Position numbers and translations under genes: made by a program. The notes under the pieces are model-generated. The model had not been told where the DNA came from, made no database searches, and worked only from the letters and a program-made list of their open reading frames with translations. This document shows positions 2,007-20,503 of a stretch of DNA of 52,361 bases, piece by piece (positions within the stretch are counted from its first letter, which is position 1; the number at the start of each line of letters is the position of its first letter). This stretch comes from a virus (taxonomy: Duplodnaviria; Caudoviricetes): IMG/VR virus record IMGVR_UViG_3300025309_000439, positions 1 through 52,361 of that record. One strand, given 5' to 3'.

Positions 2007-2039
2007 TAAACCAACGGGATTTTTTGGAAATTTGCCCCC
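2007..2039 (-). promoter_or_regulatory. Candidate promoter for the phage ECF-type sigma factor (copy 1)
   Basis: GGGGGCA-N14-CCCGTTGGTTTA; the 12-mer is identical to 5350-5361. Confidence 0.55.
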
Positions 2040-2220
2040 AGCATGAGATATAGGGATAATACTTAATAAAATATCTGTCCTTTTATGGGTTTATAGCTAA
2101 GGCTTTATACCGACGAACTTATGCGATACAGGCGTTCTTTTGCATATTATAGGCCCTGTATATCACATTACCAATGGATATTTGACAAATTAAAGCGAAT
2201 AATGCTTAAATTCTAGTATT

Positions 2221-2451
2221 ATGGAAGCGCAAGAAACCAACAAGGAAAGCAAAAGCGACAAGTTTAAGCGGATTGCGGAATATAGGACCAACAAGGTACT
2301 TGATGCCTTGCGCGTACTGGGAAACTGCTCCAACAAGGTGACCTATTCTTACACTGAAGAAGATGTGAATAAAATTTTCACCAGACTGGAGGAGGAGGTA
2401 AAGCAGACCAGAAATTTATTCGGCACAAAGAAAGAAAAATTTCAGCTGTAA
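2221..2451 (+). CDS. Small helical hypothetical protein, probably DNA-binding/regulatory
   Basis: 76 aa; FKRIAEYRTNKVLDALRVLGNCSN...YSYTEE pattern of a small family often seen upstream of defence/R-M genes; TTGACA at 2182-2187 upstream. Confidence 0.75.
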   Translation: MEAQETNKESKSDKFKRIAEYRTNKVLDALRVLGNCSNKVTYSYTEEDVNKIFTRLEEEVKQTRNLFGTKKEKFQL

Positions 2452-2621
2452 AGCAAACAGCCCCTAAACACAGAACCTTGGCGGGTAGCGGTTTAGAAGC
2501 TGTTTCGAGAGAAAAACAAGGCGTATTTCTACACCCGGACTCTGCTTTCTAATTATACCTTTTTTCCCTCCCAACGCAACTCATAGCGGGCATAGCGCCC
2601 CTATATATCACGGAGAACTAT

Positions 2622-3683
2622 ATGGTTATGGAATCTGTTGAATTACTTGCCCCACCCAAACATACCGTCGAGGAACAAGAGGCGCTTATCGACTTCGTAC
2701 TTGCGTTGAGGAAATCCCACATAAAAAAGTTCCTCGATCAGCATGAACTGCAGAAATCCGGCACAAAGCCAGACCTGCGCGAACGGATCAAGGCCGCGAT
2801 TGAAGAGGGCCAGATTACCATTGAGAAAATCGTAGAGTTCCTGGATTCCGTTGTGCCATGGGGGAAGCAGCACGTCATCATATACAAGGGGCCACATGAT
2901 GATTTACAGACATGGAAAAAACCTGACCACGTATTAGACCTTTTACGGCAACACCGCCTAGGGAAACTTTTCAATGCCACTCAACCTTTAATCCTCCCGG
3001 AGAAGCTTACCCTCTCGTCCGTAACACATTCTAACGGCAAGCTGCGAGTTACCGCCATACAGAAACGTGAATATGCCGAACGGACACCCGAGCGAGACGA
3101 AGAAAGGAAAACAGACGACGGCAAGAAGGTCACCCTCATGGCCCATGTTCTTCACCTTACCCGCACACTCGTAGCCTTCGAGTGGGATATTAACGCCAAT
3201 GTCGCAATGCTCCAGATTACACAACTCCAACGCGATGGCGACTATGAGAAAGTTGCCGAGGAATTTTTCCAGTTGATCGGAGGCTGGCTAAACATCAAGC
3301 AATTTACTCAGGTGGATATGAAGCGTATTATCTCTAAGCTGGACGAACTGGAAAGCAGCGGACACGCCGAAACCCGTTCCCATAAAATCAACTTCCGGTC
3401 GCTTCAAGGCAGGGGCATGTCGGTAGAAAGCCCAAGCCGTAGAGACTCAGTACGTGGCGAGGCGCACATCGATAGAGCAATGGACGATGCCCGTAAACAT
3501 GGTATAGGGCACCTGGGAAACTTTTACTGGCTGCCAAAGATTCAGCCGGGACCATGCCCCAATCCGTTAAAGGAAGATGCACACGTGATTATAGTAGGCG
3601 CAAAATCCCGCATTAATTTCCCGAAACCATATAGCGAAGAGGTGGTGCGATATGTTCTCCACAGAGTGCGTGCGCTTAGCTAA
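2622..3683 (+). CDS. Hypothetical protein with N-terminal SAP-like DNA-binding motif
   Basis: 353 aa; GGAG RBS; LRKSHIKKFLDQHELQKSGTKPDLRERI matches the SAP pattern. Confidence 0.8.
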   Translation: MVMESVELLAPPKHTVEEQEALIDFVLALRKSHIKKFLDQHELQKSGTKPDLRERIKAAIEEGQITIEKIVEFLDSVVPWGKQHVIIYKGPHDDLQTWKKPDHVLDLLRQHRLGKLFNATQPLILPEKLTLSSVTHSNGKLRVTAIQKREYAERTPERDEERKTDDGKKVTLMAHVLHLTRTLVAFEWDINANVAMLQITQLQRDGDYEKVAEEFFQLIGGWLNIKQFTQVDMKRIISKLDELESSGHAETRSHKINFRSLQGRGMSVESPSRRDSVRGEAHIDRAMDDARKHGIGHLGNFYWLPKIQPGPCPNPLKEDAHVIIVGAKSRINFPKPYSEEVVRYVLHRVRALS

Positions 3684-14381: not shown

Positions 14382-15800
14382 ATGACCAACCGAATACTTA
14401 ATCAGGGCCCCCTCCCAGAACTGGACGCCAAGAGCCTCCAGCGGAAGCTGTTCGACCTCTTTGCCTTTGCGCGGGACGTACTGGGCTATCACCACATCAG
14501 CAAGCTGCACCTGCGCTGGTATAAAGAACTGCTGGATCATCGCTATATCCTGCTTTTGAGCCCCCGGGGGCATCTCAAGACCTCGGCAGTCACAGTGGGC
14601 TATTCCCTCTGGCGGCTTACGCAGGACCATAACCTGCGCATTTCCATCCTTAACGAAGTGCTCGGCAACGCCAAAGATATCCTCCAGACCATCAAGGCGC
14701 ATATCTCCAGCGAAAAGTTCCAGGAGCTTTACGGCCACTGGGACACCCTGAGCAGCATGTGGACGGCTGAGAAGATTCTTATCCCCCGCGACAAGGTGCT
14801 CAAGGAGCCCAGCATCTCGGCTGCGGGCGCACTGGGTACCATCGTAAGCCAGCACGCGGACCTGATAGTGATAGACGACCCACACAGCGAGAAGAACTCC
14901 CAGACGCCGAACCAGCGCAAGAAGATAATCTCGTGGTTCCAGAATACTGTCATGCCCATTCTGGAGCCGTCCGGCCAGCTGATAGTCTGCATGACCCGCT
15001 GGCATAAAGACGACCTGGCCGGGCATATTATGTCCGATCCCGGCTTCAAGAACTGGCACGTAATCGAGCAGCGTGCAGAATGGACTGATGAGGCCGGTAA
15101 ACGCCAAATCTTATTCCCTGAAAAATGGTCACCGGAAGCACTGAACCAAATTAAGGCCAATATGGGCAGCCAGGCCTACCGTACGCAGATGCTCAACGAT
15201 GTCGCCGGTCAGGAAGGCTCGGATTTCAAAATTGAATGGCTCACCGCCTGCCGCTATGCGGAAAAGCCGAAGGACATGAATATTTACATAGGCGTGGACC
15301 TTGCGGCCGGCAGTGCTGAGTCCCATTCGAAGTTCGCCTATGTGGTCCTGGGAATCCCAAAGGGCGACAAAGACGCCTATGTGCTGGCGGCGCATAAGGA
15401 CAGCATCCAGTTCCCGGAGCAGGTAAAAACCATCAAATGGCTCTGCAAGTTCTATGAGCCCACCGAGGTGGGCATCGAAGCCAACGCCTATCAGCAGTCT
15501 ATGCTGCAGGTGTTGCGAGTGGATGAGGAGACATCCCGCCTGCCGATAAAAGGCATCACCACTCAGGGCGACAAGCAGCGACGCATCAGAGGGCTGGCGC
15601 TGCTGTTTGAAAACAGGGCTCTCCGGCTGCCCGAAAGCTTGCCGGAGCTGGAAGAGGAACTCCTGCATTTCCCATTGGGTAATGACGACCTGCTGGATGC
15701 GCTCTGGCTGGCGATGGAGGTCCTGCGAAAAAAGAAGGTGCCGCCGAACATCAGATATGTCTCTGATTTCGGCCAGAGCAGATACAATGACTATATCTAA
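14382..15800 (+). CDS. terL: Terminase large subunit
   Basis: PRGHLKT Walker A, IVIDDP Walker B, MTRW, nuclease motifs GVDLA, IEAN and DDLLDA. Confidence 0.95.
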   Translation: MTNRILNQGPLPELDAKSLQRKLFDLFAFARDVLGYHHISKLHLRWYKELLDHRYILLLSPRGHLKTSAVTVGYSLWRLTQDHNLRISILNEVLGNAKDILQTIKAHISSEKFQELYGHWDTLSSMWTAEKILIPRDKVLKEPSISAAGALGTIVSQHADLIVIDDPHSEKNSQTPNQRKKIISWFQNTVMPILEPSGQLIVCMTRWHKDDLAGHIMSDPGFKNWHVIEQRAEWTDEAGKRQILFPEKWSPEALNQIKANMGSQAYRTQMLNDVAGQEGSDFKIEWLTACRYAEKPKDMNIYIGVDLAAGSAESHSKFAYVVLGIPKGDKDAYVLAAHKDSIQFPEQVKTIKWLCKFYEPTEVGIEANAYQQSMLQVLRVDEETSRLPIKGITTQGDKQRRIRGLALLFENRALRLPESLPELEEELLHFPLGNDDLLDALWLAMEVLRKKKVPPNIRYVSDFGQSRYNDYI

Positions 15801-16560
15801 TGCGGATGATAGCGGCTTGTCTATAAGACTCGTCAGTAATGTGACTGGCCGGGAATTTGTCGCGGCACATCATTATGCCGTCATCTGCCCCCCCATCACG
15901 AAGATAACCTACGGCCTATTCAAAGGCGAGAAATTGGTAGGCGTTGCTCTCTGGGGCTTCGGCACCCGGCCCATGCACACCATCCGAAAGCTGTTCCCGT
16001 CCCTGAGCGTGAATAATTATCTGGAACTTAACAGGTTCTGCGTCCTGGACGAGATGCCCCGGAATACCGAGAGCATGTTCCTGAAGCAGTGCTGCCAACA
16101 TATCAGGCAGGATTTTCCGAATGTCCATGTGCTATTCAGCTGGGCCGACGGCCTCAGGGGCAAACCCGGCTATGTCTACCAGTCGGCCAACTGGCTATAC
16201 GGTGGTTTTATTAAGAGCCAATTTTACTGCACGGGAGACGGCGAAGTGGTTCATCCCCGGCTTTTGATTACCCGTTACGGGACGAGAGCCAACGAATTCA
16301 CCCGTGGTATCGGCCTGACCAAAATATCAGGCTTCCAGTTCCGCTACTGTAAATTCATGTGCTCGCATAAACTGCGAAAGGCCTTAATCAAGGAGTCGCC
16401 GTTTAACTGGCGCAGCAAATATCCGAAGAATGGCGATTTGCGGTGGTGGATAGATGCGGAGGAGGGCTCAAGAGAGAGCCGTGAGGTTCCCATCCTCAAG
16501 GGGTCGGGGCGGTTCCGGCACTCCGCTGGGATTTCAACGGGGGACACGCTATGGGCATAA
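15787..16560 (+). CDS. Mom-like adenine-modifying GNAT enzyme
   Basis: FVAAHHYA, GVALWG, ELNRF, NTESMFL, SWAD...GYVYQSANW motifs typical of the Mom family; overlaps terL and portal. Confidence 0.85.
   Translation: MTISNADDSGLSIRLVSNVTGREFVAAHHYAVICPPITKITYGLFKGEKLVGVALWGFGTRPMHTIRKLFPSLSVNNYLELNRFCVLDEMPRNTESMFLKQCCQHIRQDFPNVHVLFSWADGLRGKPGYVYQSANWLYGGFIKSQFYCTGDGEVVHPRLLITRYGTRANEFTRGIGLTKISGFQFRYCKFMCSHKLRKALIKESPFNWRSKYPKNGDLRWWIDAEEGSRESREVPILKGSGRFRHSAGISTGDTLWA
16456..16527 (+). ncRNA. tRNA-Gly(CCC)-like cloverleaf embedded in the 3' end of the Mom-like CDS
   Basis: Acceptor GCGGAG/CTCCGC plus T discriminator; D arm GGCTC/GAGCC; anticodon arm TGAGG-TTCCCAT-CCTCA; 4-nt variable loop; T arm GTCGG-GGCGGTT-CCGGC; 72 nt; no encoded CCA. 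Confidence 0.8.
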
Positions 16561-18512
16561 GGGAACAACTGATAAATGCGCTATTCGGCGGCGTGATCCG
16601 TGCCGAGGTCGAGAAGTCGTCCAAACAGATAATCTCGTATGTCACCGGCCTGCCCGCCACCGGCGACGGCATCCTGCCAGATATCGACTTTGAGATTTTC
16701 AACCAGATGTACGAGCAGACCTCCTGGGTCCGCGCCGTAGTCGGGGTTATCTGCAAGGCTGTAACTGCCCGAGGCTATTCGCTGGCACCCGCAAAGGTTA
16801 ATGCCGACCCAAAGAATGCTGAAACTCTGCAGGAGTTCTTTGCCAACTGTAATCCCAACGATACCCTGCTGGAGATACTGGACGATATAGCTCGCGACGT
16901 TTATGTGTTTGGGAATGCGTTTCTTGAAGTGGTTTATGGCCCGGACGGCAAACCACGCGAGTTGTGGAACCTCGACGCGACCAGCATACGGGTAAAAGCA
17001 GACGAGCACGGTTCCATTACAGGTTACATCCAGGTCCCGCGGAACCAGCCGGGAAAGGTCGAATTTAAAACCAGAGAGGTTATTCACTTCAAACTGGGAA
17101 CCAAGGGGGCTACCCTATACGGCCTTTCCCCGCTGGCTTCGCTGATACTGCCGGTGACGGTGGACAAATACGCCCAGATATACAACCGGGCGTTCTTCCT
17201 GAACGGCGCGAAAATCCGGGGCGCGTTCATCATGAAAGACGCGACACCGGAGCAGGTGGACCGCAACCGTGACTACATGGCGGCCCGCGCCAAGAATCCG
17301 GATATGGCGCACTCAGACCTCGTGCTGGAGGGCGACATCGAGTTCAAACAGATAAGCACGACCCAGAAGGACATGGAGTTTCTGGAACTCAGGGAGTTCA
17401 CCCGGAACGAGATCCTGGCCGTTTATGGTGTGCCGCCGAGCAAGGTCTCTATAATCGAGACCGGCAATATCGGCAGCGGCAGCGGCGAGCAGCAGACGGC
17501 GACGTTTTACGATGAGACTATTTCGCCCTTCCAGATGCGGCTGGCGGAGAAAATCACAAAGCACGTCATCCGGCAGGGCTTCGGCATCTCGGACTGGTCG
17601 TTCCAGTTTAATAAGCGGGCGATAGACGAAAAAGACCAGGCCGAAATATTTAACATCTACCTGCAAAACGGCGTTTTCAGCCCGGATGAGGTCCGCAGGA
17701 TTGTAGCGCCACGAATGCCGGAGATGCAGAAATCGCTGAACCCGCGCGAGACTATCGCCAACGCCACCCGTGCCGTAGTTGCCCTTGAGAACAGGTTTGT
17801 TGACGCGGTAAGGGCCATCTTCCGCAAGATAGGCGACGTGGTGAAGGCAAAACTGCCGGGCCTGAAACGCGAAGGCGACCTGGAGGTCCTGCTCCAGCTG
17901 GTGGACAAGGACAAGGTCGCCAGGACCATAGAACGGTTCGCCCTGGAATCCGCATATAAGGGGCTGGAACTATCGGCACAGCGGGCCGGGCTTGAGGGCA
18001 TTGAGGACTTAAGCCATGCGGCACATGAGAAACTCAAAACCGAGGCCTCAGCGCTGGCCGATGACCTGACGCGCGGCATGGTGGACCGGCTCCGGGAGGA
18101 ACTGTCGGCCGGCATCAGGGCAAATGAGACCATCCCGCAGCTTATAAAGCGCATTGATACCTGGGTCGGCAGCCAGACTATCACGATAAAGCCGGTTCTG
18201 GATGCCGATGGAAATATCATCAGAGCCGCCAGCAGCCGGGTAATTGGCAAGAATGTGCTGGCCGAAGTGATAGCCCGCACGGAGGCCAACCGGGCCTATA
18301 ACGCCGGGAATTTGGACGCGCTCAAGCAGGCTGGCGTTGAAAACGTGCAATGGCTACTGGCCTCGGACGCCTGTAAAGAATGCGCCGAGTTGGCTGAAGT
18401 TGCGCCCGGAGAGAAGCTCGGCAAGATTATGGCGCTGGATGATGCACAGGACATGCTGCCCGCGCATCCAAATTGCCGATGCACATGGGTTACAGTACTG
18501 GAGGAAAAATGA
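16551..18512 (+). CDS. Portal protein fused to a MuF/SPP1 gp7-like head morphogenesis domain
   Basis: Portal motifs FGNAF, EVIHF, YGLSP, YGVPP, DEVR; C-terminal IARTE...C..C...HPNCRC. Confidence 0.93.
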   Translation: MGIREQLINALFGGVIRAEVEKSSKQIISYVTGLPATGDGILPDIDFEIFNQMYEQTSWVRAVVGVICKAVTARGYSLAPAKVNADPKNAETLQEFFANCNPNDTLLEILDDIARDVYVFGNAFLEVVYGPDGKPRELWNLDATSIRVKADEHGSITGYIQVPRNQPGKVEFKTREVIHFKLGTKGATLYGLSPLASLILPVTVDKYAQIYNRAFFLNGAKIRGAFIMKDATPEQVDRNRDYMAARAKNPDMAHSDLVLEGDIEFKQISTTQKDMEFLELREFTRNEILAVYGVPPSKVSIIETGNIGSGSGEQQTATFYDETISPFQMRLAEKITKHVIRQGFGISDWSFQFNKRAIDEKDQAEIFNIYLQNGVFSPDEVRRIVAPRMPEMQKSLNPRETIANATRAVVALENRFVDAVRAIFRKIGDVVKAKLPGLKREGDLEVLLQLVDKDKVARTIERFALESAYKGLELSAQRAGLEGIEDLSHAAHEKLKTEASALADDLTRGMVDRLREELSAGIRANETIPQLIKRIDTWVGSQTITIKPVLDADGNIIRAASSRVIGKNVLAEVIARTEANRAYNAGNLDALKQAGVENVQWLLASDACKECAELAEVAPGEKLGKIMALDDAQDMLPAHPNCRCTWVTVLEEK

Positions 18513-20503
18513 GCACTGAAACGATGAAGATTGATTTTGCGGACTACGGACAATTGTTCCGCTCGGACCCAGCCAAACTGCCGGACCAAGACCTGCTGGC
18601 AATGGATTTCATTCTGCACAGGGCATGGGCCATGCTGCAGGCGGGACATAAGGTGTTTGATGAAAAGACGAACTGGGACGCGCAGGATATTCTGGTTCTG
18701 CATGTCATAGTCCTCCAAGAGATGAGCCGCCGGGCCTTTCAGCATACGATACAGGACAATTTGCAGGAACAAACCCTGGCTATTATAGCTGACGAAACCG
18801 ACGTGGAAGCTGAGGAGGATGCCGAGAAGGGTGTGCGGCAGGCCTTCGGCTCCTACGGTGGCAAGCGCTTCCTGGCTCACCGCATCGCCTCGTATATCCC
18901 CCACCACCGCACATATGTCGAACCGTTCGCGGGCGGGGCCGCCGTTCTCTACGCCAAAGACCCGTCGCCGCAGGAAGCATTGAATGACCGCGACGCGGAA
19001 ATAGCCTTCATGCACAAATTCATCCGCGACCACAGCCAGGAGGACACGAACGCTCTCGCAAAGCGGGAGTGGACAATCCTCAGGGAGACCCACGAACGGC
19101 TTAAGGCTATGAAGCCGGAAACGGATCGGGACAGGTTCTATAAAGCGTTCTATCTCACACGATCCTCTTACGGCAAAATGCGCGGCGGCTCATTTAATCC
19201 CGCTAACGAGGGCGTAAAAATAGACTTTCCGAACACAGTAGAACGCGCTCAGGAGCGCCTGCGCAACGTGGCGGTCAGCAATAAAGACTACCTGCAAGTC
19301 CTGAAGGAGTATGACAGCCCAGACACGTTCTTCTATATGGACCCGCCATATCCGGACAAGTTCAACCTCTTCGATTTCGGCTTCAAGGAGGAAGAATTTC
19401 TGAAAGCTGTTAAAGCCCTCAAGGCAAAATGGATTGTCTCATACCCATCGGAACATGCCAAGGTTTTCAAAGGCTATCACGTCTATATCGTGAAGCGCCG
19501 GAACCAGATGCGGGGCCCGGGCGGCAACAAGGAGTGGGTTACAGAAATGATGGCCTCCAATTTTCCCTTGAAGCCGGTGCATCTCTACATAGAAAAGGAT
19601 GCATTGCCGGAGCCGGAGTCAATAAACCAAATACCAGAGATTTTCCCCCATTTGGTTGATCCATTGGAGAAGATACGCGGCGCGTTCAAAAGTCCGGGCG
19701 GCAAATACCGGCTATATAAGAAAATCATCTCCCTCATCCCGGAGCATAAAACTTTCGTAGAAGGATTCTGCGGCGGCGCACAAGTGTTTTTCCACAAGAA
19801 GCAGTCGGACACGGAGGTGATGAACGACATCAACTCTGACCTCATATTCGCATACCGCTTCATCAAAGGCATGTCGCCGGAGGATTTGGCCTGGCTTAAG
19901 AAACAAAACTGGATAATCTCCAAGGCGCACGCAAAGAAGGTGTTTGAATCTGTGCCCAAAACGCCCAGAGAACATTTTTACCGTGTGGCATATCTGAATA
20001 AGGCCACATACTGGGGCCGGACCGACGTGATGGAAGGCGTCCGGAATCACGGCTCAAGCGGCGAAGGGATGCCGATAAGGCTCGTAGACCATCTGCCGGA
20101 AATACAGGAGCGCCTCAAAAGCACAAGACTTCATTCGTGGGACTGGAAAGAGGTTATAAAGGAATACGACTCGGACAACACCTTCTTTTACTTGGACCCG
20201 CCCTATCCTCTCCACTGGCCCAAGGAAGGCGGCAAGCATGGCTCAAAATTCTTCAAGGAAGAAGATCTAGTCCCGACACTCAAAAGCATAAAGGGCAGAT
20301 TCCTCTTGAGCTATGAGCTGGAAAAGATAGGGCTGTTCAAGGGATTTAAGACGTACCGCATCAAGACATTATGGACGGGAGTGCATCACATGGGAGCAAG
20401 GAAGAAGTATGAATTGTTAGTGGCGAACTATCAAGTCATGCCGATGGACATCTATTTGGAGAAATTGGCACAGACTAGTGTAATGGAGACACACCCAAAA
20501 TAG
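18509..20503 (+). CDS. Protein with two tandem Dam/D12-class N6-adenine methyltransferase domains and an N-terminal helical domain
   Basis: YGGK..EPFAGG..DPPY and PGGK..EGFCGG..DPPY; the ATG at 18509 overlaps the portal stop. Confidence 0.92.
   Translation: MSTETMKIDFADYGQLFRSDPAKLPDQDLLAMDFILHRAWAMLQAGHKVFDEKTNWDAQDILVLHVIVLQEMSRRAFQHTIQDNLQEQTLAIIADETDVEAEEDAEKGVRQAFGSYGGKRFLAHRIASYIPHHRTYVEPFAGGAAVLYAKDPSPQEALNDRDAEIAFMHKFIRDHSQEDTNALAKREWTILRETHERLKAMKPETDRDRFYKAFYLTRSSYGKMRGGSFNPANEGVKIDFPNTVERAQERLRNVAVSNKDYLQVLKEYDSPDTFFYMDPPYPDKFNLFDFGFKEEEFLKAVKALKAKWIVSYPSEHAKVFKGYHVYIVKRRNQMRGPGGNKEWVTEMMASNFPLKPVHLYIEKDALPEPESINQIPEIFPHLVDPLEKIRGAFKSPGGKYRLYKKIISLIPEHKTFVEGFCGGAQVFFHKKQSDTEVMNDINSDLIFAYRFIKGMSPEDLAWLKKQNWIISKAHAKKVFESVPKTPREHFYRVAYLNKATYWGRTDVMEGVRNHGSSGEGMPIRLVDHLPEIQERLKSTRLHSWDWKEVIKEYDSDNTFFYLDPPYPLHWPKEGGKHGSKFFKEEDLVPTLKSIKGRFLLSYELEKIGLFKGFKTYRIKTLWTGVHHMGARKKYELLVANYQVMPMDIYLEKLAQTSVMETHPK

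What the first reader, a model, noticed from the sequence alone, without database searches (positions are those of the whole stretch)
16456..16527. Cryptic tRNA-Gly-like RNA hidden in the tail of a Mom-like DNA hypermodification gene
Seen: the last codons of the Mom-like ORF fold into a 72-nt cloverleaf with canonical arm spacing. The acceptor stem is GCGGAG/CTCCGC (7th pair G-A mismatch), the D arm GGCTC/GAGCC, the anticodon arm TGAGG-TT[CCC]AT-CCTCA, the variable loop 4 nt, the T arm GTCGG/CCGGC, and the discriminator T. Established: bacterial tRNA-Gly identity elements are G1-C72, C2-G71, G3-C70, U73 and C35/C36, and all are present. The features typical of translating tRNAs are lost (T-loop GGCGGTT instead of TTCGAAT, no D-loop GG, no U8, no encoded CCA), which recalls the non-proteinogenic tRNA-Gly species staphylococci use for peptidoglycan. 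Mu Mom makes N6-carbamoylmethyladenine, a glycinamide-type adduct; from memory it has been reported to use glycyl-tRNA-Gly as donor, which should be verified. Inference: the phage co-encodes a private glycine-donor RNA for its DNA-modifying enzyme that escapes EF-Tu and the ribosome. Excising it would also cut the mom mRNA and free the portal message (start 16551), coupling modification to packaging.
Basis: partly seen in the sequence, partly recalled or inferred. Interest (0 to 1): 0.95.

Follow-up and report, generated by a model that had tools for sequence, protein, structure and literature searches.

The report
Glycine tRNA hidden inside Mom gene
The last part of this phage's Mom gene, whose Mu relative takes glycine from charged glycine-tRNA to disguise DNA, also spells a conserved but deformed glycine tRNA that is probably the enzyme's own glycine carrier, though nobody has tested this at the bench.

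Summary
It is exactly codons 224-247 of a Pfam Mom-family gene.

Fold energy alone is unremarkable (z = -1.36). ARAGORN and Rfam miss this copy. Comparative evidence decides the case:
- The element is present in 92 of 107 related loci.
- 77 distinct versions keep all four stems, and 13 pairs show two-sided compensatory changes.
- Synonymous sites are nearly frozen inside the element and saturated upstream.
- The tRNA elbow contacts 18/55 and 54/58 covary without exception.
- The glycine identity set is kept, CCA follows in 45 of 83 versions, but U33 is not kept.
- Three relatives are called tRNA-Gly by ARAGORN.
- In a blind DNA scan, 68 of 69 hits follow a Mom ORF.

Mu Mom uses Gly-tRNAGly (PMC13219725). 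The best reading is a dedicated glycine-donor RNA that is not used in translation. This is inferred, not shown. The proposed coupling to the portal gene is not conserved.

A tRNA-Gly-like locus in the 5' end of Dehalococcoides mom homologues was described in 2011 (PMC3146451). This scan has noted such elements before on other DNA.

The parts
15787..16560 (+). Mom-family gene (257 aa). It has a GNAT core (aa 11-199), a subfamily-specific C-terminal extension (aa 201-223), 24 codons that are also the tRNA-like element (aa 224-247), and an unconserved 10-codon tail.
   Evidence: Pfam PF25680 E=1.6e-41. Aligns to Mu Mom structure 8bv8 over aa 11-200. Residues matching Mu H58/Y59, R111, S124, D149 and Y159 are conserved (my reading). 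AF2 pLDDT is mostly 70-95 in the core and below 50 for aa 232-257.
16456..16527 (+). 72-nt tRNA-Gly(CCC)-like element, read as RNA of the mRNA-sense strand.
   Evidence: MFE cloverleaf. CM R1 scores 98.6 bits here and this is the only hit in the window. 77 distinct homologous versions, 13 pairs with two-sided changes, 0 of 500 shuffles as good. G-U 50 versus A-C 2 in stems.
16456..16462 (+). Acceptor stem, 5' strand (G1 C2 G3 G4 A5 G6 G7).
   Evidence: Pairs with 16520-16526. 1-72 is G-C in 76 of 77 versions, 2-71 is C-G in 77 of 77, and 3-70 is G-C in 73 of 77. Pairs 5 and 6 covary. G7.A66 is kept in 74 of 77.
16465..16480 (+). D arm (5-bp stem GGCTC/GAGCC, loop AAGAGA with A18 G19).
   Evidence: Pairs 11-24 and 12-23 covary. 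A18 covaries with G55, and G19-C56 is invariant.
16482..16498 (+). Anticodon arm. Anticodon CCC lies at 16489-16491.
   Evidence: All five stem pairs show two-sided changes. C35 and C36 are kept in 51 of 51 protein-derived versions, C34 in 50 of 51, and U33 in only 25 of 51. 32-38 is often a Watson-Crick pair.
16499..16502 (+). 4-nt variable loop AGGG.
   Evidence: A44 R45 R46 G47 across the family.
16503..16519 (+). T arm (GTCGG / GGCGGTT / CCGGC) with a non-canonical loop.
   Evidence: Pairs 49-65 and 50-64 covary and G53-C61 is invariant. The loop pair 54/58 is G-G or U-A only.
16520..16527 (+). Acceptor stem 3' strand plus discriminator U73 (16527). GGG follows, so no CCA is encoded.
   Evidence: Position 73 is T in 73 and A in 4 of 77 versions. 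CCA follows in 45 of 83 distinct versions but not in this clade. The three tRNA-Gly genes in the genome of a relative's host also lack an encoded CCA.
16528..16560 (+). Unconserved tail of the Mom ORF. It holds a GGGGGA Shine-Dalgarno-like run and overlaps the portal start (ATG 16551; mom stop TAA 16558-16560).
   Evidence: Sequence. Tails differ in length (4-57 codons, 246 in L149) and in sequence among relatives.
16551..18512 (+). Portal-MuF fusion gene. It is the downstream neighbour here but not in most relatives.
   Evidence: Pfam Phage_portal E=1.1e-54. Downstream genes differ in relatives.
14382..15800 (+). Large terminase, the upstream neighbour. It overlaps the mom start.
   Evidence: Pfam Terminase_6C E=1.6e-11. 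Upstream genes differ in relatives.

Best explanation
The 72 nt at 16456-16527 are dual-coded. They are translated as the tail of the Mom-family enzyme. As RNA they fold into an L-shaped, tRNA-Gly(CCC)-derived molecule.

Proposed mechanism (inferred):
1. Part of the mom transcript is cut at the 5' end of the element by RNase P.
2. It is trimmed at the 3' end after U73.
3. It is completed with CCA. In this clade the host CCA-adding enzyme would do this; in most relatives CCA is encoded.
4. It is glycylated by the host GlyRS.
5. Mom then uses it as a private glycine donor for glycyl transfer to adenine N6 in DNA, largely outside the EF-Tu and ribosome pool.

This parallels the non-proteogenic tRNAGly that staphylococci reserve for FmhB/FemA/FemB.

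Shown: the structure, its selection at the RNA level, its kinship with tRNA-Gly, its exclusive linkage to Mom genes, the retention of GlyRS identity elements, and the relaxation of decoding features.

Not shown: processing, charging, EF-Tu avoidance and use by Mom.
For: 1. Structure under selection.
- 40 distinct versions: 95.1% of cells paired versus 82.8% in shuffles (0 of 500 as good). Ten pairs have two-sided changes. Slid controls give 30-49% paired.
- 77 versions: 13 pairs with two-sided changes.
- On a tree of the Mom core, pair 28-42 switched at least 14 times and pair 49-63 at least 15 times.
- Third-position entropy at conserved four-fold codons is 1.69 bits upstream (n=30) and 0.41 bits in the element (n=6).
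- The synonymous third base of codon 9 covaries with the first base of codon 15.

2. tRNA architecture. In 51 of 51 versions, 18/55 is A-G or G-U only, 54/58 is G-G or U-A only, and G19-C56 is invariant.

3. Kinship with tRNA-Gly.
- ARAGORN calls tRNA-Gly in L026, L041 and L149.
- Rfam tRNA scores 42.6 bits for L026, above the threshold of 29.
- R1 ranks tRNA-Gly CCC, UCC and GCC first among 32 host tRNAs.

4. Charging features kept. The bacterial Gly identity set (PMC9976931, Table 1) is U73, G1-C72, C2-G71, G3-C70, C35 and C36. Observed: 76/77, 77/77 and 73/77 for the three pairs; position 73 is U in 73 and A in 4; C35 and C36 are kept in 51 of 51. CCA follows in 45 of 83 versions, although CCA is the rarest Pro codon in the Mom core (86 of 710).

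5. Decoding features relaxed. Position 33 is U 32, A 26, G 11, C 8. Pair 32-38 is C-G or G-C in 42 of 77.

6. Linkage to Mom only. In 68 of 69 blind DNA hits the upstream in-frame ORF is Mom; the remaining hit is cut by a contig end. Flanking genes vary.

7. Biochemistry. Mu Mom needs Gly-tRNAGly with an intact terminal ribose and rejects Gly-tRNAAla (PMC13219725, sections 9-10).

8. Passenger peptide.
- RNA-free positions change the amino acid radically; codon 9 is R/F/H/C/Y/Q.
- pLDDT is below 50 for aa 232-257.
- L025 keeps the fold despite an in-frame TAG.
Against: - There are no expression or processing data.
- This copy scores nothing with ARAGORN or Rfam. It lacks U8, G18, T54-psi55 and an encoded CCA. 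Recognition by RNase P, the CCA-adding enzyme and GlyRS is therefore assumed.
- Excision would leave a mom mRNA without a stop codon. The Mom frame is kept open through the element (a stop in 1 of 77 versions, against 16 and 25 of 77 in the other two frames). L149 fuses two Mom domains through it. Translation through the element therefore seems to matter, which sits awkwardly with efficient excision.
- Mu Mom works with all three host isoacceptors (PMC13219725, section 10). Mu, Melnitz, Edwardsiella and Psychrobacter phage mom genes have no such element. A private tRNA is therefore not a general need.
- The host genome of a close relative already has tRNA-Gly(CCC).
- Some related Mom genes lack the element (L093, L102, L103).
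Confidence: 0.6

Rival explanations
1. Cis-acting tRNA mimic. The fold stays within the mRNA and is bound by Mom itself, by GlyRS or by RNase P. It would set the level of Mom (which is harmful if over-made) or cut and stabilise the polycistronic message. No free charged RNA is produced.
For: - The element always lies inside the mom ORF, and the frame through it is kept open (1 of 77 versions with a stop).
- In this window it ends 24 nt before the portal start.
- Mu mom is known to be tightly controlled: Com is annotated as the translational regulator of Mom.
- tRNA-like operators and processing signals are established devices (recalled, not tested here).
Against: - An internal mimic has no obvious need for an encoded CCA directly after the discriminator, yet 45 of 83 versions have it, coded by the rarest Pro codon.
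- It has no obvious need for C35 and C36, which are kept in 51 of 51 versions.
- Passages of PMC13219725 suggest that Mom selects its donor by the 3' end and the amino acid.
- The downstream gene varies, so control of one particular neighbour is not conserved.
Confidence: 0.2
2. An ordinary phage tRNA-Gly(CCC) for translation of GGG/GGN codons, or for resisting host tRNA-depleting defences, that the mom ORF happens to overlap.
For: Phages often carry tRNAs. L026, L041 and L149 pass ARAGORN, and L026 passes Rfam's tRNA threshold.
Against: - U33 is not conserved: U 32, A 26, G 11, C 8 of 77.
- 32-38 is C-G or G-C in 42 of 77.
- A8 is invariant. Most copies have A18/G55 and G54/G58 in place of the canonical elbow bases.
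- 68 of 68 testable blind hits are fused to Mom and to nothing else.
- The host genome of a relative has all three tRNA-Gly genes.
Confidence: 0.07
3. The conservation is at the protein level: a C-terminal peptide motif AEEGSRES..P.L.G.G.FRHSA needed by the enzyme. The cloverleaf would then be a by-product.
For: The peptide is among the most conserved stretches of the protein alignment, and the frame is kept open.
Against: - Synonymous sites are frozen: 0.41 bits against 1.69 bits upstream.
- Synonymous bases covary with non-synonymous partners.
- Amino-acid changes are paired exactly as base pairing dictates: E/S with G/P, G/S with V/T.
- G-U pairs number 50 against 2 A-C.
- pLDDT is below 50.
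- L025 has a stop inside an intact fold.
- The Pro codon is CCC in 65 of 65.
Confidence: 0.03
4. A remnant of a tRNA attachment site (attP/attB) or some other DNA-level structure.
For: tRNA genes are common integration sites (recalled).
Against: - The element is a complete tRNA-like unit in the middle of operons.
- It has diverged from host tRNA-Gly: 45.8 bits against 98.6 bits for itself.
- It evolves by compensatory change, whereas an att site must stay identical to the host gene.
- The G-U over A-C bias marks one transcribed strand.
Confidence: 0.02

Closest known systems
tRNA-Gly-like 'pseudo-tRNA' embedded in the mom homologue of Dehalococcoides ssrA genomic-island integration modules (McMurdie et al., BMC Genomics 2011, PMC3146451; passages read)
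   Same: A conserved tRNA-Gly-like cloverleaf lies inside the coding sequence of a Mom homologue in a mobile element. Standard tRNA annotation misses it or labels it pseudo-tRNA.
   Different: - That locus is 76 bp, lies within the first 150 bp of the gene, and has an apparent anticodon 'DCC'.
- This one is 72 nt, lies at the 3' end (codons 224-247 of 257), and has anticodon CCC and a re-made elbow (A18/G55, G54/G58).
- The 2011 paper gave no function. It predates the finding that Mom uses Gly-tRNAGly.
- Homology between the two was not tested here.
Mom of bacteriophage Mu with host Gly-tRNAGly (Silva et al., Nat Commun 2026, PMC13219725; PDB 8bv8)
   Same: Same enzyme family (Pfam PF25680; aligns to 8bv8 over aa 11-200). 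The chemistry needs a glycyl-tRNAGly donor.
   Different: - Mu uses host tRNAs, and all three E. coli isoacceptors work.
- Mu mom has no embedded element and lacks the C-terminal extension.
- The main text of the paper holds no occurrence of 'tRNA-like', 'cloverleaf' or 'C-terminal'. Its supplements could not be seen.
Non-proteogenic tRNAGly NP1-NP3 of Staphylococcus aureus used by FmhB/FemA/FemB (Rietmeyer et al., NAR 2020/21, PMC7826273; abstract and passages read)
   Same: tRNA-Gly species kept for an aminoacyl-tRNA-dependent transferase (Mom has a GNAT fold). [quoted passage not shown] This is the proposed logic here.
   Different: - Those are free-standing chromosomal tRNA genes with UCC anticodons, and they have been tested biochemically.
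- This one is phage-borne, sits inside an ORF, has anticodon CCC, and is untested.
- Its T stem (G49-C65, U50.G64, C51-G63) differs from both the NP and the P types quoted in that paper.
Aminoacylatable tRNA-like structures at the 3' ends of plant-virus RNAs (recalled, not searched)
   Same: A virus-encoded tRNA mimic that is part of a longer coding RNA.
   Different: - Those sit in 3' untranslated regions of RNA genomes, use pseudoknotted acceptor arms, and serve translation or replication.
- This one is a true cloverleaf inside an ORF of a DNA phage.

Membership tests
Canonical elongator tRNA (Rfam RF00005 / ARAGORN) | Cloverleaf with 7/(4-5)/5/5-bp stems and standard spacing | tested here: met
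   MFE fold and 21 of 22 pairs. Covariation in all four stems.
Canonical elongator tRNA (Rfam RF00005 / ARAGORN) | Passes the curated detectors | tested here: not met
   In the window ARAGORN finds 0 tRNAs and Rfam finds 0 hits at E<=10. Homologues L026, L041 and L149 pass ARAGORN, and L026 passes Rfam at 42.6 bits against a threshold of 29. Nine other loci given to ARAGORN and five gave none for the element.
Canonical elongator tRNA (Rfam RF00005 / ARAGORN) | Conserved U8, G18-G19, T54-psi55-C56, A58 and U33 | tested here: not met
   A8 is invariant. A18 G19, and loop G54 G55 C56 G57 G58, in this copy. U33 is present here but not conserved in the family, 25 of 51. The elbow is kept through covarying substitutes.
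tRNA-Gly identity (bacterial GlyRS set: U73, G1-C72, C2-G71, G3-C70, C35, C36; PMC9976931 Table 1) | All six elements present in the sequence | tested here: met
   All six are present in the window copy. Family counts: 76/77, 77/77 and 73/77 for the three pairs; U73 in 73 and A73 in 4 of 77; C35 and C36 in 51 of 51 protein-derived versions.
tRNA-Gly identity (bacterial GlyRS set: U73, G1-C72, C2-G71, G3-C70, C35, C36; PMC9976931 Table 1) | Is actually glycylated by GlyRS | not testable with these tools
   Needs an in-vitro charging assay.
Non-proteogenic tRNAGly (staphylococcal NP type, by function) | Weak EF-Tu binding, no ribosomal decoding, preferred by the transferase | not testable with these tools
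   Only indirect evidence: decoding features are relaxed and the D and T loops are altered.
Mom family (Pfam PF25680) DNA adenine glycyl-transferase | Profile match above the curated cut-off, with catalytic residues present | tested here: met
   142.6 bits against a cut-off of 27.1. H29/Y30, R83, S96, D121 and Y131 align with Mu H58/Y59, R111, S124, D149 and Y159. Mu R151 aligns with L123, next to the invariant R124 (my reading, with residue roles from PMC13219725 section 13).
mom-embedded tRNA-Gly-like 'pseudo-tRNA' (McMurdie 2011) | tRNA-Gly-like fold inside a mom homologue's ORF | tested here: met
mom-embedded tRNA-Gly-like 'pseudo-tRNA' (McMurdie 2011) | Located in the first 150 bp of the gene, 76 bp long, anticodon DCC | tested here: not met
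   Here the element spans codons 224-247 of 257, is 72 nt long and has anticodon CCC. CM R1 finds no second copy in the window.
mom-embedded tRNA-Gly-like 'pseudo-tRNA' (McMurdie 2011) | Sequence homology to the Dehalococcoides element | not tested

The most novel reading that the evidence does not exclude
One stretch of DNA is read twice: as the tail (or, in L149, the linker) of the Mom enzyme, and as a virus-encoded, non-translational tRNA-Gly. The RNA would be cut out of the enzyme's own mRNA, CCA-matured, glycylated by the host synthetase and consumed only by that enzyme to hypermodify DNA. This would be the first dedicated aminoacyl-donor tRNA for a nucleic-acid-modifying enzyme. It would also be a gene-within-a-gene in which making the cofactor destroys the message, so the ratio of enzyme to donor is set by the race between ribosomes and RNase P.
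Probability: 0.5. Interest if true: 0.9.

Novelty: new variant of a known kind. Interest (0 to 1): 0.8.

Why it matters
- It would give the tRNA-dependent DNA hypermodification pathway a self-supplied cofactor. That would explain how Mom competes with EF-Tu for glycyl-tRNA.
- It offers a clean natural case of protein and structured RNA coded in the same frame. Amino-acid 'covariation' is here dictated by base pairing, which is a trap for contact prediction and for selection tests on proteins.
- It shows that standard tRNA finders miss a whole family. In the window ARAGORN and Rfam both score nothing.
- It turns a 2011 curiosity into a directly testable hypothesis, using the assay published in 2026.
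- The re-made elbow (A18/G55, G54/G58) is also of interest for tRNA structure.

Tried and rejected
- Fold energy as evidence: z = -1.36, not significant. I did not use it.
- Rfam and ARAGORN on the window: nothing found.
- RNA-seq evidence: no RNA holder was listed for window 14382-18512.
- Cultured phages: 286 records match the protein, all below 60% identity. The four I fetched (Melnitz-3, Edwardsiella ET-ABTNL-9, Psychrobacter Y8A, Mu) have no element. The 35.5-bit hit in Melnitz is a tRNA-Trp about 1 kb upstream.
- The window's own genome is only the 52-kb virus record, so host tRNAs were taken from MAGs that hold relatives.
- The 15 loci without an nhmmer hit:
  - Six are cut by a contig end before the site: L022, L031, L074, L096, L099, L106.
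  - L013, L027 and L051 are one contig. Its similarity stops at aa 218, about 100 nt before the contig end.
  - L105 and L107 are truncated at aa 152.
  - L093, L102 and L103 have diverged tails without the element.
  - L097 has a divergent copy (32.3 bits, anticodon ACC, A73).
The question is left open.
- Attachment-site, DNA-structure and pure protein-motif readings were rejected (see Rival explanations).
- EF-Tu affinity from the T-stem pairs was not computed, because I had no table from a call.
- Script flaws:
  - In one search the structure string was one bracket short, so the pair counts printed there (18-21) are one too low. Searches are correct.
  - In one search a few codon columns are slightly misaligned by MAFFT (for example one 'F' codon ending in G).
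  - The pattern fixes C35, C36, the loops and part of the T arm. Conservation of those positions is therefore quoted only from the 51 protein-derived versions.
- Not in print, as far as searched: a functional link between mom-embedded tRNA-like loci and Gly-tRNA-dependent momylation (searches; find in PMC13219725). Supplements were closed and may bear on this.
Full report
THE OBSERVATION

ViennaRNA's minimum-energy fold is that cloverleaf at -32.8 kcal/mol. The energy is ordinary for this composition: z = -1.36, and 21 of 200 shuffles fold as well. With the geometry fixed, the window has one site with at least 21 of 22 pairs, which is this one. Twenty dinucleotide shuffles had none. ARAGORN finds no tRNA in the window, and Rfam finds nothing at E<=10 around the site. 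So the single copy is suggestive but not decisive.

CONTEXT

The element is exactly codons 224-247 of the ORF 15787-16560. That ORF matches Pfam Mom (PF25680) at E=1.6e-41 over aa 11-199 and aligns to the Mu Mom crystal structure 8bv8 over aa 11-200. Residues equivalent to Mu H58/Y59, R111, S124, D149 and Y159 are conserved (my reading, with residue roles from PMC13219725 section 13). The gene lies between a large terminase (14382-15800) and a portal-MuF gene (16551-18512), followed by a double D12 methyltransferase. The genome held for the window is only this 52-kb virus record.

THE PREMISE

Silva et al. (Nat Commun 2026, PMC13219725; abstract and sections 9, 10 and 13 read) show the following:
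- Mu Mom transfers glycine from Gly-tRNAGly to N6 of adenine in dsDNA.
- All three E. coli tRNAGly isoacceptors work.
- Gly-tRNAAla does not work.
- The terminal riboadenosine is essential.

COMPARATIVE EVIDENCE

Sampling. A protein search gave 258 relatives at E<=0.001 among 559 candidates. In an alignment of 30 of them (58-86% identity), the peptide AEEGSRESRE.P.LKGSGRFRHSA, which is exactly the span of the cloverleaf, is among the most conserved stretches. The tails after it diverge. I fetched 107 loci by protein similarity: 22 viral, 10 genomic and 75 metagenomic. nhmmer finds the element in 93 of 108 sources (92 of the 107 loci, plus the window). Each source has one copy, always on the mom strand at the end of the gene, giving 51 distinct 72-mers.

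The 15 loci without a hit:
- Six are cut by a contig end before the site.
- Three are one contig whose similarity stops at aa 218, about 100 nt before the contig end.
- Two are truncated at aa 152.
- Three have diverged tails.
- L097 has a divergent copy: 32.3 bits, anticodon ACC, discriminator A.

Stem covariation. On 40 distinct versions, 95.1% of cells are paired against 82.8% in shuffles (0 of 500 as good). Ten of 22 pairs have two-sided changes. The covariation score is 0.351 against 0.111. Slid controls give 30-49% paired. RNAalifold predicts the same cloverleaf without being told it.

Amino acids change in pairs as base pairing dictates:
- E/S with G/P, from acceptor pair 5.
- G/S with V/T or G/I, from the D stem.
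- V-I, C-T, I-N, L-K and P-R, from the anticodon stem.

The synonymous third base of codon 9 covaries with the first base of codon 15, which makes K, Q or E.

Synonymous sites. Third-position entropy at conserved four-fold codons is 1.69 bits in the Mom core (n=30) and 0.41 bits in the element (n=6). The Pro codon at the anticodon is CCC in 65 of 65.

Strand. G-U pairs outnumber A-C mismatches 50 to 2, so the folded strand is the mRNA sense strand.

Independent events. On a maximum-likelihood tree of the Mom core with the element left out (67 genes), pair 28-42 changed state at least 14 times and pair 49-63 at least 15 times.

tRNA ARCHITECTURE, NOT ONLY A CLOVERLEAF

In all 51 versions, position 18 and position 55 are A with G (44) or G with U (7). 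Positions 54 and 58 are G with G (47) or U with A (4). G19-C56 is invariant. These are the canonical elbow contacts, and all four combinations of the two covarying pairs occur. On the tree the two columns of each pair always change together: at least 7 and at least 4 events.

Three versions have the canonical T loop TTCGATT together with a GG in the D loop: L026, L041 and L055.

KINSHIP WITH tRNA-Gly

- ARAGORN calls tRNA-Gly(ccc) in L026 and L041, out of 12 loci given. It calls tRNA-Gly(acc) in L149, out of 6 given.
- Rfam's tRNA model scores L026 at 42.6 bits, above its threshold of 29.
- A covariance model of the element (R1) was run over 28 loci holding 32 distinct tRNAs of the MAG that carries an 86%-identical Mom. 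It ranks tRNA-Gly CCC (45.8 bits), UCC (39.3) and GCC (35.1) first.
- In another MAG, its best hit outside the family is tRNA-Gly(UCC) at 43.8 bits.

WHAT IS KEPT AND WHAT IS NOT

The bacterial glycine identity set is U73, G1-C72, C2-G71, G3-C70, C35 and C36 (PMC9976931, Table 1 and the 'Glycine identity' passage).

Kept:
- G1-C72 in 76 of 77 versions, C2-G71 in 77 of 77, G3-C70 in 73 of 77. The others at 3-70 are A-U or C-G.
- Position 73 is U in 73 and A in 4, the latter forming one clade.
- C35 and C36 in 51 of 51, and C34 in 50 of 51, among the protein-derived versions.
- CCA follows the discriminator directly in 45 of 83 distinct versions (31 of 55 protein-derived). It is coded as Pro-CCA 45 times against CCT twice, although CCA is the rarest Pro codon in the Mom core at 86 of 710.
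- The base before the element is T in 50 of 82.

The window's clade has GGG in place of CCA. The three tRNA-Gly genes of the MAG holding its 86% relative also lack an encoded CCA. The MAG holding L026, which has CCA, encodes CCA on its tRNA-Gly(UCC). That is two genomes only.

Not kept:
- U33: U 32, A 26, G 11, C 8 of 77.
- 32-38 is C-G or G-C in 42 of 77, which is unusual for decoding tRNAs (recalled).
- A8 replaces U8 throughout.

The pattern fits selection for the synthetase and the 3' end, not for the ribosome.

LINKAGE TO MOM

An IUPAC pattern of the element's core was scanned blind over 2.9 million viral contigs and gave 69 hits. In 68 of them the in-frame upstream ORF matches a Mom HMM at E<=4e-29. 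The remaining hit is cut by the contig end.

The union of both samples is 161 loci and 77 distinct versions. Thirteen pairs have two-sided changes, and 0 of 500 shuffles do as well. The pattern fixes several positions, so their conservation is quoted only from the protein-derived set.

Flanking genes differ:
- The next large ORF downstream is a portal in the window and in L006. Elsewhere it is a ParB-methylase, a primase, NeuB, Phg_2220_C, or has no Pfam family (10 loci).
- Upstream genes include terminase, methylases, RecT, a RecD-like helicase, a D5-type protein and a Prim-Pol.

So the element travels with Mom, not with the packaging genes.

Mu, Melnitz-3, an Edwardsiella phage and a Psychrobacter phage have no element at mom.

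THE PEPTIDE

- Positions that are free in the RNA change the residue radically. Position 26, for example, gives R/F/H/C/Y/Q at codon 9.
- AF2 gives pLDDT below 50 for aa 232-257, against mostly 70-95 in the core.
- L025 keeps a 95-bit fold with an in-frame TAG.

Against that, the Mom frame has a stop in only 1 of 77 versions, while the other two frames have stops in 16 and 25 of 77. In L149 and L169 one 515-aa ORF runs Mom - element - Mom. Translation through the element is therefore probably maintained.

MECHANISM

Best reading (about 0.6): a dedicated, non-translational glycine-donor tRNA for Mom. It would be released from the mom transcript, matured and charged by host enzymes. The logic matches that shown for staphylococcal non-proteogenic tRNAGly and FmhB, where EF-Tu sequesters proteogenic Gly-tRNA (PMC7826273; abstract and passages). 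Every step after folding is inferred.

The main rival (about 0.2) is a cis-acting mimic for control or processing. The encoded CCA and the conserved C35 and C36 are hard to explain on that view.

PRIOR KNOWLEDGE

McMurdie et al. 2011 (PMC3146451; passages) described a 76-bp tRNA-Gly-like 'pseudo-tRNA' in the first 150 bp of the mom homologue of Dehalococcoides ssrA islands, without assigning a function. I reached that paper through earlier notes of this scan. Those notes report such elements in at least 28 other genomes.

The main text of the 2026 Mom paper does not mention tRNA-like elements. Supplements were closed. My searches found no paper linking the two facts.

I class this as a new variant of a known kind: it is embedded at the 3' end, has anticodon CCC and has a re-made elbow.

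VERDICT

Interest 0.8.

Noticed in passing
L149:413-1960 (-) and L169 (same sequence): One 515-aa ORF encodes Mom domain, tRNA-Gly(acc) element (ARAGORN, L149:1154-1225) and a second Mom domain. A third Mom-like ORF lies just upstream at 2029-2730 (-). The element here has an A1.A72 mismatch and a canonical TTCGATT T loop. This layout could link the 3'-embedded and 5'-embedded types.
   Followed up: partly
L025:3140-3211: The element has an in-frame TAG at positions 37-39, so the Mom ORF stops inside it. The fold is nevertheless intact (95.2 bits). L025 and L026 are two different Mom loci in one MAG.
   Followed up: partly
L052, L053, L060, L101 (and L097): The discriminator is A instead of U, in a single low-GC clade (one change on the tree). 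The same protein clade includes P0044 and P0067, which their source names as from 'archaeon' MAGs. A73 is the archaeal/eukaryal tRNA-Gly discriminator, so the element may track the host GlyRS type.
   Followed up: partly
Alignment A3, columns 32 and 38: Positions 32 and 38 covary as Watson-Crick pairs (C-G 38, U-A 16, G-C 4 of 77). This would give a 6-bp anticodon stem and a 5-nt loop NCCCA in many versions.
   Followed up: partly
window 18473-20503 and relatives L008, L016, L025, L028: DNA methyltransferases sit next to Mom. In the window it is a double D12-class enzyme. In four relatives it is an N6_N4 methylase, fused to a ParB domain in three of them (L008, L016, L025). This suggests a recurring DNA-modification module.
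   Followed up: no
L114:958-1031 (Methylophilales phage Melnitz-3): ARAGORN calls a tRNA-Trp(cca) inside a CDS annotated as a hypothetical protein (locus 764-1207), about 1 kb upstream of that phage's Mom homologue.
   Followed up: no
Protein alignment A1 / model m54707f4630df: Amino-acid columns in aa 224-247 covary because of RNA pairing. Methods that read protein coevolution as contacts could be misled here.
   Followed up: no
window 16551-16560: The portal start ATG (16551) overlaps the mom stop TAA (16558-16560). A GGGGGA run lies 8 nt upstream, 11-16 nt after the element, so ribosomes reading through the element could couple to portal translation in this phage.
   Followed up: no
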